64,000 bases of DNA from Candidatus Babeliales bacterium (GTDB taxonomy: Bacteria > Babelota > Babeliae > Babelales > JANWKD01): NCBI GenBank assembly GCA_963701665.1, contig OY969622.1, forward strand, positions 1,209,159-1,273,158, in the 5' to 3' direction. Below the pieces are notes generated by a model. It worked only from the letters and a program-made list of their open reading frames with translations, had not been told where the DNA came from and searched no databases. Made by a program: the position numbers and the translations under genes. Below, one piece after another: positions 37,571 to 42,468 of the stretch (within the stretch, counting starts at the first letter, position 1; each line of letters opens with the position of its first letter).

Positions 37571-38770
37571 ATGAAGAAAACTTTTCTGCTCTTAGTACTT
37601 TTATCTATAGCTCATAGTTTTGGGAAACCAAAAGGATTAGAAAATTGTGGTGCTAGTTGTTATCTGAATGCCGCTACACAATCGCTCATTAATATCAAAG
37701 AACTTACCACTACAATTTTGAAATTAACTATAGAACCACAACAGCTCTTTGCATTTGCCTATCAACAATTACTCATAAAAATCCAGACTACGACAGCGCC
37801 AAAGATAACCAATAGAGATCCAGCATTAGCAAATTATCAGAACATAGGCACAGCTTTAATTGCAGAACAAACTCGACGAGCTCCTAATTCTCAAGAAGAT
37901 GCTTCAGAATTTTTTGTATTAGCGCTTAACGCCCTTAAAAGTAGTTCTTTGGATTTAGATCAGCTTATTAGTAATTATTTTGGCTTTTTTCAAACAAAAA
38001 AGACTGCATGTCCAAACCCATATGATAAAACTCAAATCCTGACGTATTACACACCAAGCCTCGAACAAGTAAAATTACAAAATCCAGAATATAATTTATC
38101 ACTACCAATCGTTAGCTATAAAAGTGGTGATGCACCGCTAAAAACTCTAGATGCATGTTTGAGAGACTATTTTAGCGAAGAAATTTTTAATGATCCTACA
38201 AGTTACATTTCATTTCAAGGCACTGTGTCAGGATTAGAATTTTTAACAGATCAGCCACTTCCTAATTGCACCCAAAAAACATATTTGATTAATGCACCCG
38301 AAATAGTTCTTATTTCTTTGAAACGCACGGGGTGGGATATCATAAAACAACAGCCCGTACGTTTTTCACATCAGGTTGCGATTCCTTCACTACTTTCTAT
38401 AAGAGATTATATGAAAGAACAAGTTCGCGGAGAATCATACGAGTACACCCCCATTAATATAATTGTACAAACAGGCGGCGCTCAAGGTGGCCATTATCGG
38501 GCGTATATAAAAGATAACGGTAGTTGGTATGAATGTAATGACCAATTTATTAATGAAGTACAGGGAACACCTGATAATCCCATCTCAGCACTCATGCAAA
38601 AAGATATTGATAACAATGCCTATGTTATTTTTTACAAAAAAATTAACTTGTCAGAAGAACCTCAATGGGCACAAAAAATTCAAGAACTAAAAGAGGGTAA
38701 GCTAAAACAACAATTAACAAATTTAACGAATATATTAGACTTATTACAAAAAAAATTGGCCTCCGAATAA
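37571..38770 (+). CDS. Eukaryote-like ubiquitin-specific protease (USP/UCH, peptidase C19) with signal peptide
   Basis: Cys box GLENCGASCYLNAATQSL, the QEDASEFF motif and His box GGHYRAYIKDNGSWYECNDQFINEV. N-terminal MKKTFLLLVLLSIAHSFG. Confidence 0.85.
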   Translation: MKKTFLLLVLLSIAHSFGKPKGLENCGASCYLNAATQSLINIKELTTTILKLTIEPQQLFAFAYQQLLIKIQTTTAPKITNRDPALANYQNIGTALIAEQTRRAPNSQEDASEFFVLALNALKSSSLDLDQLISNYFGFFQTKKTACPNPYDKTQILTYYTPSLEQVKLQNPEYNLSLPIVSYKSGDAPLKTLDACLRDYFSEEIFNDPTSYISFQGTVSGLEFLTDQPLPNCTQKTYLINAPEIVLISLKRTGWDIIKQQPVRFSHQVAIPSLLSIRDYMKEQVRGESYEYTPINIIVQTGGAQGGHYRAYIKDNGSWYECNDQFINEVQGTPDNPISALMQKDIDNNAYVIFYKKINLSEEPQWAQKIQELKEGKLKQQLTNLTNILDLLQKKLASE

Positions 38771-38782
38771 TATTTTATATCT

Positions 38783-41347
38783 ATGAATACCGATATTTTT
38801 ACTAACGCCAGTACCGAACTCTTACACCAAGCCGCACGCATAGCGCAACAGCATGAAAATCCAACATTAACGCCGCTCCACACGCTCGCGGCTGGCATTG
38901 AACAAGAATTTTGTCGCTCGGCATTGCAAGCGCTCAAAGTTCCAGTCCTTGACTTACAAAAACTCGTTGCACAAGAAATTGAACGTTTGCCTAAAGTTCG
39001 TGGCGCTCAACTGGCACTTGATCGTGATATGCAATCATTTTTCGCTGAACTTGAAAAAGAGATGCAAACATTGGGTGATACGTATATCAGCCTTGAACAT
39101 TTTCTGCTGGTTTGGGCAACGACACCTTTGTTGCCTGAAAGCGTGAAAGAATTTTTTAAACGCACAAAATTTACTCATGCTGCTATACTTGCTCATATGA
39201 AGGAGTTACGCAAAGGACAAACCGTGAAAGAAAAAAACGCCGAATCGCAGTACCAAATTTTGGAAAAATATTGCCAAAATATAACAGCACAAGCTCGAGC
39301 GGGAAAACTTGATCCGGTGATTGGACGCCATGAAGAAATTCGGCGTGTCATTCAAATTCTTTCACGACGCACTAAAAATAATCCGGTCCTCGTTGGCGAA
39401 CCGGGTGTCGGTAAAACTGCCATTGTTGAGGGAATTGCGCAACGTATTGTTAATAATGATGTGCCAGAAAGTTTGCGCAACAAACAAATTTATGCACTCG
39501 ACCTTGGTTTGTTAGTCGCGGGAACCAAATATCAAGGCGAATTTGAAGAGCGCTTAAAAGGCATTTTAAAAGAAATAGAAAGCCATCCTGATGATATCAT
39601 TTTATTCATTGATGAATTGCACACGATCATTGGTGCGGGTGCAGCAGGTGGTGGAACCCTCGATGCTTCTAATCTTTTAAAGCCGGCACTCGCACGCGGA
39701 CAATTACATTGTGTCGGTGCAACCACGTTACAAGAATATAAAAAATATATTGAAAAAGATGCGGCACTCGAGCGCCGTTTTCAAAGAGTACTCGTTGAAG
39801 AACCCTCGATTGAAGATACCGTTTCAATTTTGCGCGGGTTAAAAGAACGGTATGAATTACATCACGGCATTCATATAAAAGACCAAGCACTCGTCGATGC
39901 AGCGTTGCTCGCGGCAAAATATATTCCCGATCGTTTTTTACCTGATAAAGCGATCGACTTGGTTGACGAGGCTGCTGCCATGGTAAAAATGTCGATTGAT
40001 TCACAACCTGCTGAACTTGATCAACTTGAGCGCAAAATTAGACAATTAGAGATTGAAAAAGTTGCATTGCAAAAAGAAAAAGGTGATGGCGTTTCAGCAA
40101 CACGCCTTGAACAACTTGATAAGGAACTTGCTGAATTAAAAGAACGTAATCTCACGTTGCTCAATCAATGGAAAGCAGAAAAAGCCCCGCTTGAAAAAAT
40201 TACGGCGATCAAAGAAAAAATTGAAGCAGCCCACGTTGCGTATCAACAAGCTGAGCGTGAAGGCAATTTTGCCAAAGCATCAGAAATAAAATATGGGACC
40301 ATGGTCAAACTGGAGCAAGAACTTACAAAAGAAGAAGAGAAGCTCAAAAATTTACCTACGCACATGATTAAACAATATGTTGATGAGCATGATATTGCAA
40401 AAGTTTTATCGCGTTGGACGGGCATTCCTGCTGAAAAATTAGAGGCCAAAGAAAAAGAAAAACTGCTGTCGATGGAATCTATTCTCCAAAAGCATGTCAT
40501 TGGCCAAGAAGAAGCATTACGCGTCATTACGCACGCCATTCAGATGCATCGCACGGGATTAACAGATCCTCATCGGCCGATTGGTTCATTTTTATTTTTA
40601 GGCCCCACCGGCGTTGGTAAAACAGAAGTTGCTAAAGCACTCGCAGAATTTTTATTCAATGATCCTAAAAAGCTCATTCGCATCGATATGTCAGAATATA
40701 TGGAAAAGCACGCAGTCGCTCGTTTGATTGGCGCGCCGCCCGGCTATATTGGCTATGAAGAAGGCGGTCAACTTACTGAGCAAGTGCGCCAACACCCTTA
40801 TAGCATTGTATTATTTGATGAAATTGAAAAAGCACACCCGGATGTTTTCAATATTTTCTTACAAATCCTTGATGAAGGCCACCTGACTGACAGTCAAGGC
40901 AGAACGGTGTCATTCAAAAATTGTGTCATCATTATGACGTCCAATATTGGGTCAGATATTATTTTACAAGCTGATGAGATCACCGCAACAATAAAAAAAT
41001 CTGTCGAAACTTTGTTACAACAACGATTCAAGCCAGAATTTCTTAATCGCATTGATTCAATAGTATTCTTTAAACGGCTTACTGATGCTGATGTTGAAAA
41101 AATCGCACAGCTTCAAATACACGATCTTGAAAAACGGTTAGCAGAAAAAAATATTTCACTTGAAATCACTCAAGATGCGCTCAAAGAACTTGCCAATCAA
41201 GGATATACCAAAGAATATGGGGCACGTCCACTTAAGCGTACCATTCAACGCAATGTGATTGTCCCTATTTCACAATATCTCCTTGCACATCCTGATGCAA
41301 AAAAAGTAAAAATTGTGTTACGCAAAGGCTCATTCGTTGTTGAATAA
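38783..41347 (+). CDS. clpB: Chaperone disaggregase ClpB
   Basis: 854 aa; two AAA+ modules ([13 protein letters not shown] and [13 protein letters not shown]), a long middle coiled coil and the GARPLKR motif. Confidence 0.95.
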
Positions 41348-41421
41348 CAAAAAATCTAGTAAAAAACCATAAAAACGTTACGCTAAAGGGCAGAATTTAA
41401 TTTTTTAATAGGAGCTCGATC

Positions 41422-42468
41422 ATGAATCGTATGCATCAAAAATTGTTTTTACTCGGTATAATTAGTTTTTCATCCATCGCACACCTCAATGCAGGCACTT
41501 GTGGTGATTTTTTAGACGGTTTAATTGGTGCTATCCTTATTGCAGGGCGAGAACAGGAACGGGCCGAAAGAAAAGAGCTTGAAAGGTTAAAACAACAACA
41601 GGAAGATGACCGCAGACGCTTAGAACAGCTTCAAAAAAATCCTGCAAATACTATAAATCCCAAAGAAAAAATGAAATTGGATTTACATGCTTCATTGGAC
41701 AACAGATTAAAACAAGTCACTGATATTGATCAACAATCTGACACTGATAAATTAGCGCTATGGAAAAAAAAGCAGGAGATCGTTGAGAATGCCATGAAGC
41801 AAGGATTTTCTTCATTCCATTTTGCAGAAAAATATGCCTTGGACTCTCTGCCTGGAGGTATTCTAGAAGTTTTAAGAACAAAAGCTAAAACTTTAGCCGA
41901 AAAGAAACAATCGAATAATGATTTTTTGAAGCTCATTGATAAAACAGTAACAGAGGCAGTGGCCGGAACTCTTTCCAATGGAGGATCAGTTGGTGGTCTA
42001 TTCAAACAACTAGAAAATAACATTGAATCGTCTCGTGCTCACTACTTCAATCAGCGCCCTCAATCACAACCGGCACAAAGACCTGCTGCGACATTCACAC
42101 CTGCGCCACAACCACAAACACCGTCACTGTATCCTGATATTGGACAAGTGCAAGCTGAGCTTGATCCAAACAACGTTCAAGAAATTTTTCCACGAAATGA
42201 TACGTCAAAAAATCTTGAAGAATTTAAGAATAAAACTCGCGATAAGAAAATTTATCCCCTCGACAACTGTGCCTACTCATGTTTCGAAAAGTTTTCCGAT
42301 TTAAAAAAACGAGTGACATTGCGCTGTGGCCATCAAATGTGCCCGCAATGTCTTTATAACTGGATTTTCACTAAAAACCGACAAAAACAAACTCCGACAT
42401 GTCCAGAGTGTCGACACCCAATAGAAGAAAAAGATTTTAACGCAGATTATGTAAGCTCAAAATTGTAA
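41422..42468 (+). CDS. Secreted protein with C-terminal RING-like (C3HC4-type) finger
   Basis: Signal MNRMHQKLFLLGIISFSSIAHLNA. CAYSC-X14-CGHQMCPQC-X17-CPEC matches the RING-HC order, with an atypical CX3C first pair. Charged coiled-coil N-region and a Pro/Gln-rich linker. Confidence 0.7.
   Translation: MNRMHQKLFLLGIISFSSIAHLNAGTCGDFLDGLIGAILIAGREQERAERKELERLKQQQEDDRRRLEQLQKNPANTINPKEKMKLDLHASLDNRLKQVTDIDQQSDTDKLALWKKKQEIVENAMKQGFSSFHFAEKYALDSLPGGILEVLRTKAKTLAEKKQSNNDFLKLIDKTVTEAVAGTLSNGGSVGGLFKQLENNIESSRAHYFNQRPQSQPAQRPAATFTPAPQPQTPSLYPDIGQVQAELDPNNVQEIFPRNDTSKNLEEFKNKTRDKKIYPLDNCAYSCFEKFSDLKKRVTLRCGHQMCPQCLYNWIFTKNRQKQTPTCPECRHPIEEKDFNADYVSSKL

What the first reader, a model, noticed from the sequence alone, without database searches (positions are those of the whole stretch)
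37571..42468. Secreted eukaryote-type deubiquitinase and secreted RING-like protein flanking clpB: a candidate ubiquitin writer/eraser pair
Seen in sequence: 37571-38770 has all three USP/UCH hallmarks (Cys box GLENCGASCYLNAATQSL, QEDASEFF, His box GGHYRAYIKDNGSWYECNDQFINEV) behind a signal peptide. 41422-42468 ends in a C3HC4-ordered finger (CAYSC...CGHQMCPQC...CPEC) behind a signal peptide and coiled coil.

Established knowledge: bacteria have no ubiquitin system, so such domains are typically effectors acting on the host.

Inference: two opposing activities lie within 5 kb, followed by a C2H2-finger protein and another secreted orphan. This suggests a small host-ubiquitin manipulation island. 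The CX3C first pair of the RING is atypical and may define a variant fold.
Basis: partly seen in the sequence, partly recalled or inferred. Interest (0 to 1): 0.7.

Follow-up and report, generated by a model that had tools for sequence, protein, structure and literature searches.

The report
Exported USP deubiquitinase and RING ligase
A small intracellular parasite of protists (order Babeliales) carries a eukaryote-type ubiquitin-removing enzyme and a ubiquitin-ligase-like RING protein, both with export signals; the domain calls hold, but such proteins are already reported for this group and similar ones have been tested in other bacteria.

Summary
Both observations are confirmed. ORF 37571-38770 is a full-length USP/C19 deubiquitinase domain. 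It scores Pfam UCH E=1.8e-29, its family profile matches solved USP15/4/2/36 end to end at E=4e-46, and the AlphaFold model (pLDDT 84) matches whole USP domains. ORF 41422-42468 ends in a C3HC4 RING that is closest to RNF4.

The window comes from a ~1.34 Mb genome. Its nearest relatives are Candidatus Babeliales (Dependentiae), which are obligate parasites of protists.

The USP belongs to a large family with one architecture: signal peptide, Cys box directly after it, and usually a C-terminal leucine-heptad helix.

The order uvrC-USP-clpB-RING recurs in two other Babeliales genomes, and clpB-RING in a fourth contig. The flanking housekeeping genes are 62-85% identical, but USP and RING only 29-40%. 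These are therefore old, fast-evolving core genes, not a horizontally acquired island.

The CX3C first zinc pair is private to this genome. A 90%-identical variant and all orthologs have CX2C, so it does not define a variant fold.

Prior reports cover this kind of protein:
- Secreted C19 hydrolases and a RING protein were reported for Babela massiliensis in 2015.
- Bacterial USPs (TssM, SnUSP1-3) and a bacterial RING E3 (SneRING) have been characterised.

Verdict: a new member of a known kind. Functional coupling of the two proteins is unproven.

The parts
36286..37554 (+). Short uvrC (about 420 aa; GIY-YIG plus UvrC RNase H endonuclease domains). Housekeeping gene immediately upstream of the USP, with a 16-nt spacer.
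   Evidence: Pfam PF08459 E=1.1e-40 and PF01541 E=1.7e-10. 82% identical to the L002 gene and 62% to the L006 gene.
37571..38770 (+). USP/C19-type deubiquitinase, 399 aa: signal peptide, full USP catalytic domain, C-terminal helix.
   Evidence: Pfam UCH E=1.8e-29. Family profile against solved USP15/USP4/Ubp8/USP36/USP2 gives E down to 4e-46 over profile positions 23-349. AlphaFold2 mean pLDDT 83.9, pTM 0.81. Foldseek top hits are all USP catalytic domains, E about 1e-22, TM (target-normalised) up to 0.82 over about 355 columns.
37571..37618 (+). Predicted Sec signal peptide (MKKTFLLLVLLSIAHS). The likely cleavage after AHS leaves about 13 residues before the catalytic Cys.
   Evidence: Sequence inspection and hydropathy score of 3.15. 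The same layout occurs in 20 aligned relatives and in at least 78 of the 150 best representatives. No signal-peptide predictor was available.
37634..37687 (+). Cys box GLENCGASCYLNAATQSL. The catalytic Cys30 codon is at 37658-37660. Asn25 is at the oxyanion-hole position.
   Evidence: N25 and C30 are invariant in alignment A1. They align with GLSNLGNTCFMNS of USP15 and the USP36 Cys box.
37892..37915 (+). QEDASEFF (the QQD box of USPs).
   Evidence: D110 and A111 are invariant and Q108 is nearly invariant in A1. Aligned with QQDCQE of USP15.
38486..38560 (+). His box GGHYRAYIKDNGSWYECNDQFINEV: catalytic His308, aromatic gatekeeper Tyr309, third triad residue Asp324.
   Evidence: G307, H308, Y309, W319, C322 and D324 are invariant in A1. 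Aligned with GGHYTAF...WYYFDDS of USP15.
38696..38761 (+). C-terminal leucine-heptad helix GKLKQQLTNLTNILDLLQKKLA. It is conserved at the extreme C-terminus of many family members.
   Evidence: L382 and L385 are invariant and L378, L389 and L392 nearly invariant in A1. Residues 364-398 are helical in the model. An HMM of the tail finds it within 25 aa of the end in 37 of 150 representatives, 21 of which were used to build the HMM.
38783..41347 (+). clpB (AAA+ disaggregase), between the USP (12-nt spacer) and the RING gene (74-nt spacer).
   Evidence: Pfam AAA_2 E=3.1e-71, ClpB_D2-small E=8.9e-22. 85% identical to L002 and 75% to L006.
41422..42468 (+). RING protein, 348 aa: signal peptide, charged coiled-coil stretch, conserved middle region of unknown function, C-terminal RING and tail.
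   Evidence: Orthologs lie directly after clpB in L002 (38% identity), L006 (29%) and L013 (39%).
41422..41493 (+). Predicted signal peptide (MNRMHQKLFLLGIISFSSIAHLNA).
   Evidence: Sequence inspection and hydropathy score of 2.40. No dedicated predictor was available.
42268..42414 (+). C3HC4 RING finger (C283, C287, C302, H304, C307, C310, C327, C330) plus Arg331. The first pair is CAYSC (CX3C).
   Evidence: All eight ligands and R331 are invariant in A2/A3. PF00097 is above its cutoff. The AlphaFold core has pLDDT 65-86 and the best Foldseek hit is the RNF4 RING 2xeu (E=8e-4, TM target-normalised 0.70, 30% identity); every other listed hit is a RING, SP-RING or U-box. The DNA reads tgt gcc tac tca tgt.
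42415..42465 (+). Conserved C-terminal tail HPIEEKDFNADYVSSKL. Tyr343 lies 12 residues after Arg331, the same spacing as R181 to Y193 in rat RNF4.
   Evidence: I334, D338, F339, Y343 and S346 are invariant. phmmer aligns ...CRHPIEEKDFNADYVSS with RNF4 ...CRKKINHKRYHPIYIGS. The roles of RNF4 R181 and Y193 are taken from PMC3991395.
42480..42503 (+). 10-bp stem-loop (GTGGCCTGTT-GAAA-AACAGGCCAT) 12 nt after the RING stop codon. A possible weak terminator.
   Evidence: The number of terminator-like sites in the region is no higher than in shuffled sequence, so this is only a lead.
42478..43197 (+). Exported Cys/His-rich protein with C2H2-like fingers. The true start is probably Met16 at 42523.
   Evidence: Conserved ...L..HIK..H...K..CP...C....P....HL...H.AFKICC pattern with two L002 paralogs. 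No Pfam hit. The best PDB profile hits are CTCF, ZNF410 and Zif268 fingers but are not significant (E 1.6-4).
43173..43784 (+). Signal-peptide orphan protein, 203 aa.
   Evidence: Weak homolog in L002 (23% identity, E=2e-6). No Pfam or NCBIfam hit.

Best explanation
The two genes encode Sec-exported effectors of an obligate intracellular Babeliales (Dependentiae) bacterium, and these effectors act on the ubiquitin system of its protist host.

The first is a catalytically competent, canonical USP-type cysteine deubiquitinase with Thumb, Palm and Fingers. Its mature N-terminus starts just before the Cys box. It ends in a short leucine-zipper-like helix.

The second is a RING-type E3 adaptor. Its C-terminal RING, together with its Arg331 and Tyr343 tail, resembles dimeric RNF4-type RINGs that clamp host E2~ubiquitin. 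The middle region, of unknown fold, would select substrates.

Inferred route: a Sec signal peptide takes each protein to the periplasm. Crossing the outer membrane would use the type II secretion / type IV pilus-like machinery (a T2SS-F gene lies in the window) or vesicles. That would suffice if the bacterium lies free in the host cytoplasm, as described for Burkholderia TssM and for Chromulinavorax.

Both genes are old, vertically inherited, fast-evolving core genes sitting in a housekeeping neighbourhood (uvrC-USP-clpB-RING). They are not a mobile island. Whether they act on the same targets is unknown.

Shown here: domain identity, conservation of catalytic and zinc residues, family architecture, synteny.
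Inferred: secretion into the host, activity, substrates.
For: - USP identity: Pfam UCH E=1.8e-29. Family profile against solved USPs E=4e-46 over the whole domain. AlphaFold pLDDT 83.9 with Foldseek hits only to full USP catalytic domains. N25, C30, D110, H308, Y309 and D324 are invariant among 21 relatives.
- USP family: 2289 representative proteins at E<=1e-3 and 175 at E<=1e-10. At least 78 of the best 150 have a hydrophobic N-terminus followed by the Cys box within 45 residues. The six genome hits with E<=1e-20, and a weaker seventh, are Candidatus Babeliales/Babeliaceae MAGs.
- RING identity: PF00097 above its cutoff. Best sequence and fold match is the RNF4 RING. Eight ligands, R331 and Y343 are invariant. 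The R331-to-Y343 spacing equals that of RNF4 R181 to Y193, residues needed respectively for E2 binding and for engaging ubiquitin across the dimer (PMC3991395).
- Synteny and rates. UvrC is 82/62% and ClpB 85/75% identical to L002/L006; USP is 40/29% and RING 38/29%.
- Context: signal-peptide ankyrin proteins and a T2SS-F gene in the window; OmpH/Skp, MurJ and peptidase M23 indicate a two-membrane envelope.
- Literature: secreted C19 hydrolases and a RING protein in Babela massiliensis (PMC4378268). 44% of Chromulinavorax proteins carry signal peptides, and it replicates in the cytoplasm (PMC6561590). TssM is type II secreted (PMC10719079). Simkania USPs and SneRING are active (PMC10643670; PMC12591485).
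Against: - No activity, localisation or substrate data exist for any member of either family.
- Signal peptides were judged by eye and hydropathy only.
- A Sec signal alone gets a protein only as far as the periplasm; passage across the outer membrane is assumed.
- In this genome, the extra residue in the first zinc pair (CAYSC) sits in the loop that normally contacts the E2. It puts Ser where orthologs have Val, so this copy may be weakened or altered.
- The RING model has only moderate confidence (mean pLDDT 63).
- The zinc ribbon of the USP Fingers is degenerate. Only one of the four cysteines aligns with USP15's CxxC...CxxC, although several active eukaryotic USPs also lack it (my own knowledge).
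Confidence: 0.7

Rival explanations
1. Coupled writer/eraser pair. The RING ligase and the USP act on the same host targets or on each other, for example with the USP trimming chains made by the RING or protecting it from auto-ubiquitination. That coupling would explain why they stay linked.
For: The uvrC-USP-clpB-RING order is kept in three Babeliales genomes whose ClpB proteins have diverged to 75% identity, and clpB-RING in a fourth contig. All genes are on the same strand with short spacers. L006 carries a second RING protein between uvrC and the USP.
Against: The two genes are separated by clpB. The whole segment, including unrelated genes, is collinear in the relatives, so linkage may simply be inherited gene order. 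Other USP paralogs in Babeliales sit in unrelated contexts with no RING gene nearby (L003, L004, L005, L007). There is no sequence evidence of interaction.
Confidence: 0.15
2. Surface-cleaning deubiquitinase. The USP stays attached to the bacterial surface or to vesicles, perhaps through its C-terminal zipper helix. It strips host ubiquitin from the bacterium to avoid autophagy, rather than acting on soluble host proteins. This is a variant of the best explanation, not exclusive of it.
For: The conserved terminal helix is dispensable for the USP fold. The same short motif occurs at the termini of other exported proteins. There is precedent in TssM, a type II secreted USP-type enzyme said to keep bacterial surfaces free of ubiquitin (PMC10719079).
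Against: No anchor partner has been identified. The motif statistics are weak: 5 terminal against 2 internal non-USP hits. The helix could equally mediate dimerisation or host targeting.
Confidence: 0.2
3. The USP domain is specific for a ubiquitin-like modifier (NEDD8, ISG15-like, SUMO, Fubi) rather than ubiquitin.
For: The top Foldseek hit is USP18 (ISG15-specific) and the top single-sequence PDB hit is USP36 (solved with Fubi). SnUSP2 of Simkania also reacts with an ISG15 probe.
Against: Scores to ubiquitin-specific USPs (USP2, 7, 15, 35, 46) are practically the same. Protist hosts lack ISG15 (my own knowledge).
Confidence: 0.1
4. In this particular genome the RING is impaired or has changed E2 preference, because of the one-residue insertion in zinc site 1 and the E2-contact loop.
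For: CAYSC here against CSVC, CGVC or CAVC in every relative, including a 90%-identical variant. The surrounding ~30 residues are unusually diverged in the window copy. The residue before the second Cys is the usual hydrophobic E2 contact (PMC12591485), and here it is Ser.
Against: The ORF is intact. The identical sequence is seen in a second assembly (P0007). All eight ligands and R331/Y343 are kept. SneRING also has Ser at that position and is active.
Confidence: 0.15
5. Both proteins work inside the bacterial envelope on bacterial substrates and have nothing to do with host ubiquitin.
For: Only the Sec signal is evident. Nearly half of Dependentiae proteins carry one, so the signal says little on its own.
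Against: No ubiquitin-like substrate or E1/E2 is seen in the window. A RING needs an E2~Ub, which is absent from a periplasm (my own knowledge). The catalytic machinery is conserved like that of eukaryotic USPs.
Confidence: 0.05

Closest known systems
Secreted C19 ubiquitin C-terminal hydrolases and the RING finger protein annotated in Babela massiliensis (Babeliales; PMC4378268)
   Same: Same bacterial order, same domain types, and predicted signal peptides. The authors give the same host-ubiquitin interpretation.
   Different: Those were genome annotations only. I did not align the Babela proteins with these, so orthology is untested. The family-wide architecture, the C-terminal helix and the uvrC-USP-clpB-RING synteny were not found in the passages I read.
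Simkania negevensis SnUSP1-3 (PMC10643670)
   Same: [quoted passage not shown] They are experimentally active on ubiquitin, and the bacterium is amoeba-associated.
   Different: Different phylum (Chlamydiota). Those are large proteins with hydrophobic regions, whereas this is a compact ~400-aa protein with a cleavable-looking Sec signal placed directly before the Cys box and a C-terminal heptad helix. No activity data here.
Burkholderia TssM (PMC10719079)
   Same: USP-class bacterial effector delivered by type II secretion after Sec export. That route is sufficient because the bacterium is cytosolic. This is the best precedent for the route proposed here.
   Different: TssM lacks the whole Fingers subdomain and has an Ig-like domain. 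The window protein models as a full USP domain that aligns over ~355 columns with Fingers-bearing USPs.
RNF4 RING domain (solved structures 2xeu, 4ap4)
   Same: Best sequence and fold match. Shares a C3HC4 RING at the extreme C-terminus, an Arg immediately after the last Cys, and an aromatic residue 12 positions later.
   Different: No SUMO-interaction motifs. The N-terminal two thirds are unrelated. The first zinc pair is CX3C in this genome. Dimerisation is untested. About 30% identity over 67 residues only.
SneRING of Simkania negevensis (PMC12591485)
   Same: A zinc RING E3 encoded by an intracellular bacterium and shown to be active with host E2s. It also has an atypical Ser before the second zinc-binding Cys.
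   Different: In SneRING the RING is N-terminal with atypical ligands (His and Asn substitutions). Here the RING is C-terminal with all eight canonical ligands. No detectable relationship outside the RING.

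Membership tests
USP / peptidase C19 (Pfam PF00443 UCH) | Significant match to the family model over the whole catalytic domain | tested here: met
   103.6 bits against a cutoff of 23.9, profile positions 2-254 of 254. Family profile against solved USPs E=4e-46.
USP / peptidase C19 (Pfam PF00443 UCH) | Cys box with the catalytic Cys and the preceding Asn; QQD box | tested here: met
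   N25, C30, D110 and A111 are invariant in 21 relatives and align with the USP15 and USP36 boxes.
USP / peptidase C19 (Pfam PF00443 UCH) | His box with the catalytic His, the adjacent aromatic gatekeeper, and the downstream Asp/Asn | tested here: met
   H308, Y309 and D324 are invariant and align with GGHYTAF...FDDS of USP15.
USP / peptidase C19 (Pfam PF00443 UCH) | Thumb-Palm-Fingers fold | tested here: met
   Model pLDDT 83.9, pTM 0.81. Foldseek gives TM (target-normalised) 0.72-0.82 to USP35, 18, 46, 12 and 34 over 353-370 columns.
USP / peptidase C19 (Pfam PF00443 UCH) | Zinc ribbon (CxxC...CxxC) in the Fingers | tested here: not met
   Only C147 aligns with a ribbon cysteine of USP15. 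This feature is not universal among active USPs (my own knowledge), so it does not exclude membership.
USP / peptidase C19 (Pfam PF00443 UCH) | Isopeptidase activity on ubiquitin | not testable with these tools
   Needs Ub-PA, Ub-AMC or di-ubiquitin assays.
RING finger, C3HC4 type (PF00097) | Eight zinc ligands in the order C-C-C-H-C-C-C-C | tested here: met
   C283, C287, C302, H304, C307, C310, C327 and C330 are all invariant in orthologs.
RING finger, C3HC4 type (PF00097) | Canonical CX2C spacing of the first pair | tested here: not met
   The window has CAYSC. All relatives, including the 90%-identical P0008, have CX2C, so the family meets this feature and this copy deviates by one residue.
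RING finger, C3HC4 type (PF00097) | Score above the curated family threshold | tested here: met
   PF00097 at 23.3 bits against 21. Other RING models score below their own cutoffs.
RING finger, C3HC4 type (PF00097) | Cross-brace RING fold | tested here: inconclusive
   The model is of moderate confidence (mean pLDDT 63, core 65-86; 4-sequence alignment; no zinc modelled). Even so, all 50 listed Foldseek hits are RING, SP-RING or U-box domains, the best being RNF4.
RING finger, C3HC4 type (PF00097) | E2-contact residues: a hydrophobic residue before the second Cys, and Arg/Lys after the last Cys | tested here: inconclusive
   The Arg after the last Cys is present and invariant (R331). The hydrophobic residue is Val in orthologs but Ser in the window. 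Active SneRING also has Ser there.
RING finger, C3HC4 type (PF00097) | E2-dependent ubiquitin transfer | not testable with these tools
   Needs an auto-ubiquitination or lysine-discharge assay with an E2 panel.
Secreted bacterial effector acting in the host | N-terminal Sec signal peptide | tested here: met
   Basic, hydrophobic and cleavage regions seen by inspection, with hydropathy 3.15 and 2.40. The layout is conserved in family members. This is heuristic only; no SignalP.
Secreted bacterial effector acting in the host | Delivery across the outer membrane into host cytosol | not testable with these tools
   A T2SS-F/PilC-like gene is present at 53037-54233. Delivery itself needs localisation experiments.
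Horizontally acquired genomic island | Deviant composition, mobility genes at the borders, absence from related genomes | tested here: not met
   G+C is 0.36-0.41, like its surroundings. The same genes occur in the same order in L002, and largely so in L006. The IS200 copies lie only downstream, at 43843-45370.
C2H2 zinc finger (downstream ORF 42478-43197) | Significant match to a C2H2 model, or C-x2-5-C-x12-H-x3-5-H units | tested here: inconclusive
   The pattern is present and conserved with two L002 paralogs. There is no Pfam hit at E<=0.1. PDB profile hits to CTCF, ZNF410 and Zif268 reach only E=1.6-4.

The most novel reading that the evidence does not exclude
The short three-heptad leucine motif ([DN]L..AL..L...L..L...L) sits at the extreme C-terminus of the USP family. 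It also sits at the C-terminus or directly after the signal peptide of unrelated exported proteins (ankyrin, coiled-coil and RING proteins). It may be a shared terminal docking or sorting module of Babeliales effectors, for example for tethering to the bacterial surface or vesicles, for effector-effector pairing, or for recognition by the export machinery. In that reading, uvrC-USP-clpB-RING marks a core, co-expressed ubiquitin-effector unit of this clade.
Probability: 0.12. Interest if true: 0.6.

Novelty: new member of a known kind. Interest (0 to 1): 0.33.

Why it matters
Dependentiae/Babeliales are widespread and almost uncultured parasites of protists, and none of their presumed effectors has been tested. 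This locus offers a compact, canonical (Fingers-bearing) bacterial USP that reaches its export pathway through a plain Sec signal. It also offers a bacterial RING with all eight canonical ligands and RNF4-like catalytic features. Both belong to families that are conserved but fast-evolving within the order.

They would be convenient entry points for biochemical work on how this phylum handles host ubiquitin. They would also allow comparison with the independently acquired USP and RING sets of Simkania and with TssM. The finding does not change current concepts, because the presence of such genes in Babeliales and the activity of bacterial USP and RING effectors are already documented.

Tried and rejected
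- The word-indexed protein search found almost nothing. It returned self plus one weak hit for the USP, and 2-3 proteins for the RING even with a profile. The exhaustive representative search was needed to find the USP family.
- The high-ranking 'multi-stretch' hits (P0021, P0022, P0034, P0040, P0048) are perfect tandem repeats of eukaryotic USP17/36/42-like units. I set them aside as arrays or assembly artefacts, not relatives.
- The genome scan pattern did not match the window's own genome, because it has GASC rather than G[NA]TC. The organism is therefore assigned from its nearest relatives, not from its own record.
- The promoter/terminator scan of 35400-44000 gave counts equal to shuffled sequence, so it says nothing about operon structure.
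- NCBIfam gave no hits for six proteins of the region.
- Rfam and tRNA scans found nothing in the region.
- Tandem Repeats Finder missed the 566-bp IS200 repeat because the period exceeds 500. The repeat finder recovered it.
- The PDB profile search for the C2H2-like protein was not significant.
- Rejected ideas: that CX3C is a family-level variant fold; that the region is an acquired island; that the USP was recently transferred from the current host. On the last point, the gene's G+C matches the genome and the family has radiated widely within Babeliales, so any acquisition is ancient. No phylogeny was made.

Full report
**1. What is there**

The ORF list shows a same-strand run of genes:
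- a 1538-aa signal-peptide protein (30901-35517);
- a 208-aa protein (35580-36206);
- a short uvrC (36286-37554);
- the USP ORF (37571-38770);
- clpB (38783-41347);
- the RING ORF (41422-42468);
- a Cys/His-rich ORF (42478-43197);
- a 203-aa orphan (43173-43784);
- three IS200-like tnpA ORFs on the opposite strand.

The spacers are very short: 16 nt between uvrC and the USP, 12 nt between the USP and clpB, and 74 nt between clpB and the RING gene. Both target ORFs have a purine-rich ribosome-binding sequence before the ATG.

**2. The USP**

Sequence evidence:
- Pfam UCH (PF00443) matches end to end: E=1.8e-29, 103.6 bits against a cutoff of 23.9.
- The single sequence finds solved USP36, 47, 28, 7 and 2 only weakly (E about 1e-8 to 1e-5).
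- A profile of the protein with 20 relatives matches the complete catalytic domains of USP15, USP4, Ubp8, USP36, USP2, USP12/46, USP18 and USP7, with E from 4e-46 to 5e-37.
- In that alignment Asn25 and Cys30 (Cys box), Asp110 (QQD box), His308 and Tyr309 (His box with aromatic gatekeeper) and Asp324 all fall on the canonical positions. All are invariant among the 21 sequences.

Structural evidence:
- An AlphaFold2 model built on that alignment has mean pLDDT 83.9 and pTM 0.81.
- Its 50 best Foldseek matches in the PDB are all USP catalytic domains. E is about 1e-22 to 1e-19, and the target-normalised TM-score reaches 0.82 over about 355 aligned columns.
- It is therefore a complete Thumb-Palm-Fingers domain, unlike the fingerless TssM (PMC10719079).
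- Only one of the four zinc-ribbon cysteines of the Fingers is retained.
- I could not read model coordinates, so the triad geometry itself is untested.

**3. The USP family and the organism**

The exhaustive search of 1.84 billion representatives gave 2289 proteins at E<=1e-3 and 175 at E<=1e-10. The best full-length hits are 340-480-aa proteins that align from residue 1-2 of the query. They share this architecture:
- MKK plus a hydrophobic stretch;
- then (W/Q)PPxLxNCGNTC directly;
- the USP domain;
- a charged linker of variable length;
- a terminal L..L...L..L...L helix.

By a simple hydropathy-plus-motif test, at least 78 of the 150 best representatives have a hydrophobic N-terminus followed by a Cys box within 45 residues. 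The C-terminal helix motif occurs within 25 residues of the end in 37 of them, of which 21 had been used to build the motif model.

A scan of one genome per prokaryotic species returned ten loci. The six with E<=1e-20, and a weaker seventh, are titled Candidatus Babeliales or Babeliaceae.

The window's own proteins are on record from a 1,337,192-bp contig. G+C is about 0.38 throughout.

The window also holds:
- many signal-peptide ORFans;
- ankyrin-repeat proteins with signal peptides;
- a T2SS-F/PilC-like gene;
- envelope genes: MurJ, OmpH/Skp, peptidase M23.

All of this fits a Babeliales (Dependentiae/TM6) obligate intracellular bacterium. I did not see the organism's own name.

**4. The RING protein**

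Six RING models match residues 283-336. PF00097 exceeds its curated threshold (23.3 against 21 bits). The others fall below theirs.

The best solved-structure sequence match is the RNF4 RING, E=6.8e-7 for the tandem construct.

Orthologs were found directly downstream of clpB in three other sources:
- L002: 351 aa, 38% identity;
- L006: 311 aa, 29% identity;
- metagenome contig L013: 351 aa, 39% identity.

In addition there is a 58%-identical fragment (P0017) and a 90%-identical variant (P0008).

All eight zinc ligands are invariant. So are Arg331 (immediately after the last Cys) and the tail residues Ile334, Asp338, Phe339, Tyr343 and Ser346.

In rat RNF4 the Arg after the last Cys (R181) is needed for E2 binding. 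Tyr193, twelve residues later, engages the ubiquitin of the E2~Ub bound to the other protomer of the RING dimer (PMC3991395). Here Arg331 and Tyr343 have the same twelve-residue spacing, and HMMER aligns them accordingly. This suggests a dimeric RING that primes E2~Ub, but it is an inference.

A model of residues 254-348 from four sequences has moderate confidence (mean pLDDT 63, core 65-86). Its best fold match is again the RNF4 RING (2xeu: E=8e-4, target-normalised TM 0.70, 30% identity). The other hits listed are also RING, SP-RING or U-box domains.

**5. The CX3C pair**

The window reads tgt-gcc-tac-tca-tgt, which is CAYSC. A second assembly record has the same sequence (P0007), so it is not a read error.

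Every relative has CX2C:
- CSVC in P0008 (90% identical) and in P0017;
- CGVC in L002;
- CAVC in L006 and L013.

The extra residue is therefore a recent, private change in this genome, inside a locally diverged patch of about 30 residues. It is not a family trait or a variant fold.

It lies in the loop that normally contacts the E2. It places Ser where the orthologs have the usual hydrophobic residue. The active Simkania SneRING also has Ser there (PMC12591485). The effect on activity is open.

**6. Synteny and evolutionary rate**

L002 (a Babeliales MAG) carries, in this order: the homolog of the 1538-aa protein, two inserted exported proteins, uvrC, USP, clpB, RING, an orphan, and two C2H2-like proteins.

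L006 (another Babeliales MAG) carries: uvrC, a second RING protein on the opposite strand, a transposase-like ORF, USP, clpB, and the RING ortholog.

L013 carries the clpB 3' end, RING and an orphan.

Identities to the window:

| Protein | L002 | L006 |
|---|---|---|
| UvrC | 82% | 62% |
| ClpB | 85% | 75% |
| USP | 40% | 29% |
| RING | 38% | 29% |

The two effector-like genes have thus stayed in place while evolving much faster than their housekeeping neighbours. That is what one expects of host-interaction genes.

The conserved order is equally well explained by inherited collinearity of the whole segment. Other USP paralogs sit in unrelated neighbourhoods (L003, L005, L007, and the tandem pair in L004). 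With uniform composition, the 'island' reading is not supported. The 'writer/eraser pair' reading remains an untested possibility.

**7. Mechanism proposed**

Shown:
- a competent-looking USP catalytic apparatus and fold;
- a complete RING ligand set with RNF4-like catalytic residues;
- Sec-type N-termini.

Inferred:
- Export to the periplasm is by Sec.
- The outer membrane is crossed by the type II secretion / type IV pilus-like apparatus or by vesicles. TssM is a precedent for type II secretion of a USP-class effector by a cytosolic bacterium. In Chromulinavorax, 44% of proteins carry signal peptides, vesicles are seen, and replication is in the host cytoplasm.
- Once outside, the USP removes ubiquitin from host or bacterial-surface targets, and the RING recruits host E2~Ub to ubiquitinate substrates bound by its middle region.

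**8. Comparison with what is known**

- The Babela massiliensis genome paper already lists an F-box protein, a RING finger protein and three secreted C19 ubiquitin hydrolases, and it stresses interference with host ubiquitin (PMC4378268).
- Canonical bacterial USPs have been shown to be active in Simkania (SnUSP1-3).
- TssM is the fingerless Burkholderia example.
- A bacterial zinc RING E3, SneRING, was characterised in 2025.

The present genes are therefore new members of a known kind, in a phylum where none has been tested. As far as the papers I read go, this analysis adds:
- the size and fixed architecture of the Babeliales signal-peptide USP family;
- the conserved position of the USP and RING genes around clpB;
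- the RNF4-like Arg and Tyr features;
- the demonstration that CX3C is private to this genome.

**9. Side observation: the terminal motif**

I built an HMM from the C-terminal helix of 21 USPs and scanned 132 ORFs from the window and the Babeliales loci. It gave 15 hits of at least 3 bits, against 0-1 in shuffled sequences. Twelve of the 15 are terminal: eight at the extreme C-terminus and four directly after a signal peptide.

Non-USP carriers are:
- the two ankyrin-like paralogs at 61291-62451 and 62467-63753;
- the protein at 5624-6718 (-);
- the second RING protein of L006;
- the coiled-coil protein of L002. An ankyrin protein next to it shows the same motif more weakly.

Excluding USPs, the count is only 5 terminal against 2 internal, so this is a lead and not a result. 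It is the basis of the 'novel case'.

**10. Verdict**

- Observation: confirmed.
- Interpretation: partly supported. The domains and the host-directed role are sound. The island and variant-fold readings are not supported. Coupling of the two proteins is untested.
- Novelty: new member of a known kind.
- Interest: moderate to low (0.33).

Noticed in passing
window 38696-38761; 61291-62451 (+); 62467-63753 (+); 5624-6718 (-); L006 3727-4689 (-); L002 2170-3384 and 3446-4540 (+): A short three-heptad leucine motif ([DN]L..AL..L...L..L...L) recurs either at the extreme C-terminus or directly after the signal peptide of unrelated exported proteins (USP, ankyrin-like, coiled-coil, a second RING protein). 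Of 15 HMM hits, 12 are terminal, and shuffled controls give 0-1 hits. Only 5 terminal against 2 internal hits are outside the USP family.
   Followed up: partly
window 43787-45484 (tnpA ORFs 43843-44238, 44409-44804, 44975-45370, minus strand): Three perfectly identical tandem copies, with a 566-bp period, of an IS200-like Y1 transposase unit (131-aa TnpA, PF01797 E=1.5e-41). They lie immediately downstream of the conserved gene block.
   Followed up: partly
window 36286-37554 (+); L002 4721-5980; L006 2460-3719: UvrC is only about 420 aa in all three genomes. Only the GIY-YIG and RNase H endonuclease domains are detected, with no UVR or C-terminal helix-hairpin-helix match. This appears to be a conserved short form.
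   Followed up: no
window 53037-54233 (-): A type II secretion system protein F / PilC-like gene (PF00482 E=1.7e-46). It is relevant to how Sec-exported proteins might cross the outer membrane.
   Followed up: no
window 59091-60686 (+): A strong RPE65/carotenoid-oxygenase family protein (PF03055 E=3.4e-96) with a hydrophobic N-terminus. This is unexpected in a reduced parasite genome.
   Followed up: no
window 10373-12358 (-): A protein with MutS domain V (E=5.6e-27) whose N-terminus looks like a signal peptide (MKKSLLILLCVISLHA).
   Followed up: no
window 24380-25216 (+): An ankyrin-repeat protein with a signal-peptide-like N-terminus (Ank_2 E=5.4e-24). This is typical of Dependentiae effector repertoires.
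   Followed up: no
window 23671-24162 (-): A signal-peptide protein ending in YCDYCRRAY...HCKTKLH, a C2H2/U1-like zinc-finger pattern, with no Pfam hit.
   Followed up: no
window 42480-42503 (+): A 10-bp GC-containing hairpin just after the RING stop codon overlaps the first codons of the annotated C2H2-like ORF. That ORF more likely starts at Met16 (42523), which gives it a signal-peptide-like N-terminus.
   Followed up: partly
L006 3727-5846: In this relative, a second exported RING protein (minus strand) and a transposase-like ORF are inserted between uvrC and the USP gene.
   Followed up: partly
L004 4665-7329: Two signal-peptide USP paralogs lie in tandem in another Babeliales genome. This shows local duplication within the family.
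   Followed up: no
window 42241-42300 (RING residues ~274-293): The ~30 residues around the first zinc pair are strongly diverged between the window protein and its otherwise 90%-identical variant P0008. P0008 agrees with the more distant P0017 in this patch, so the window copy is the derived one.
   Followed up: partly
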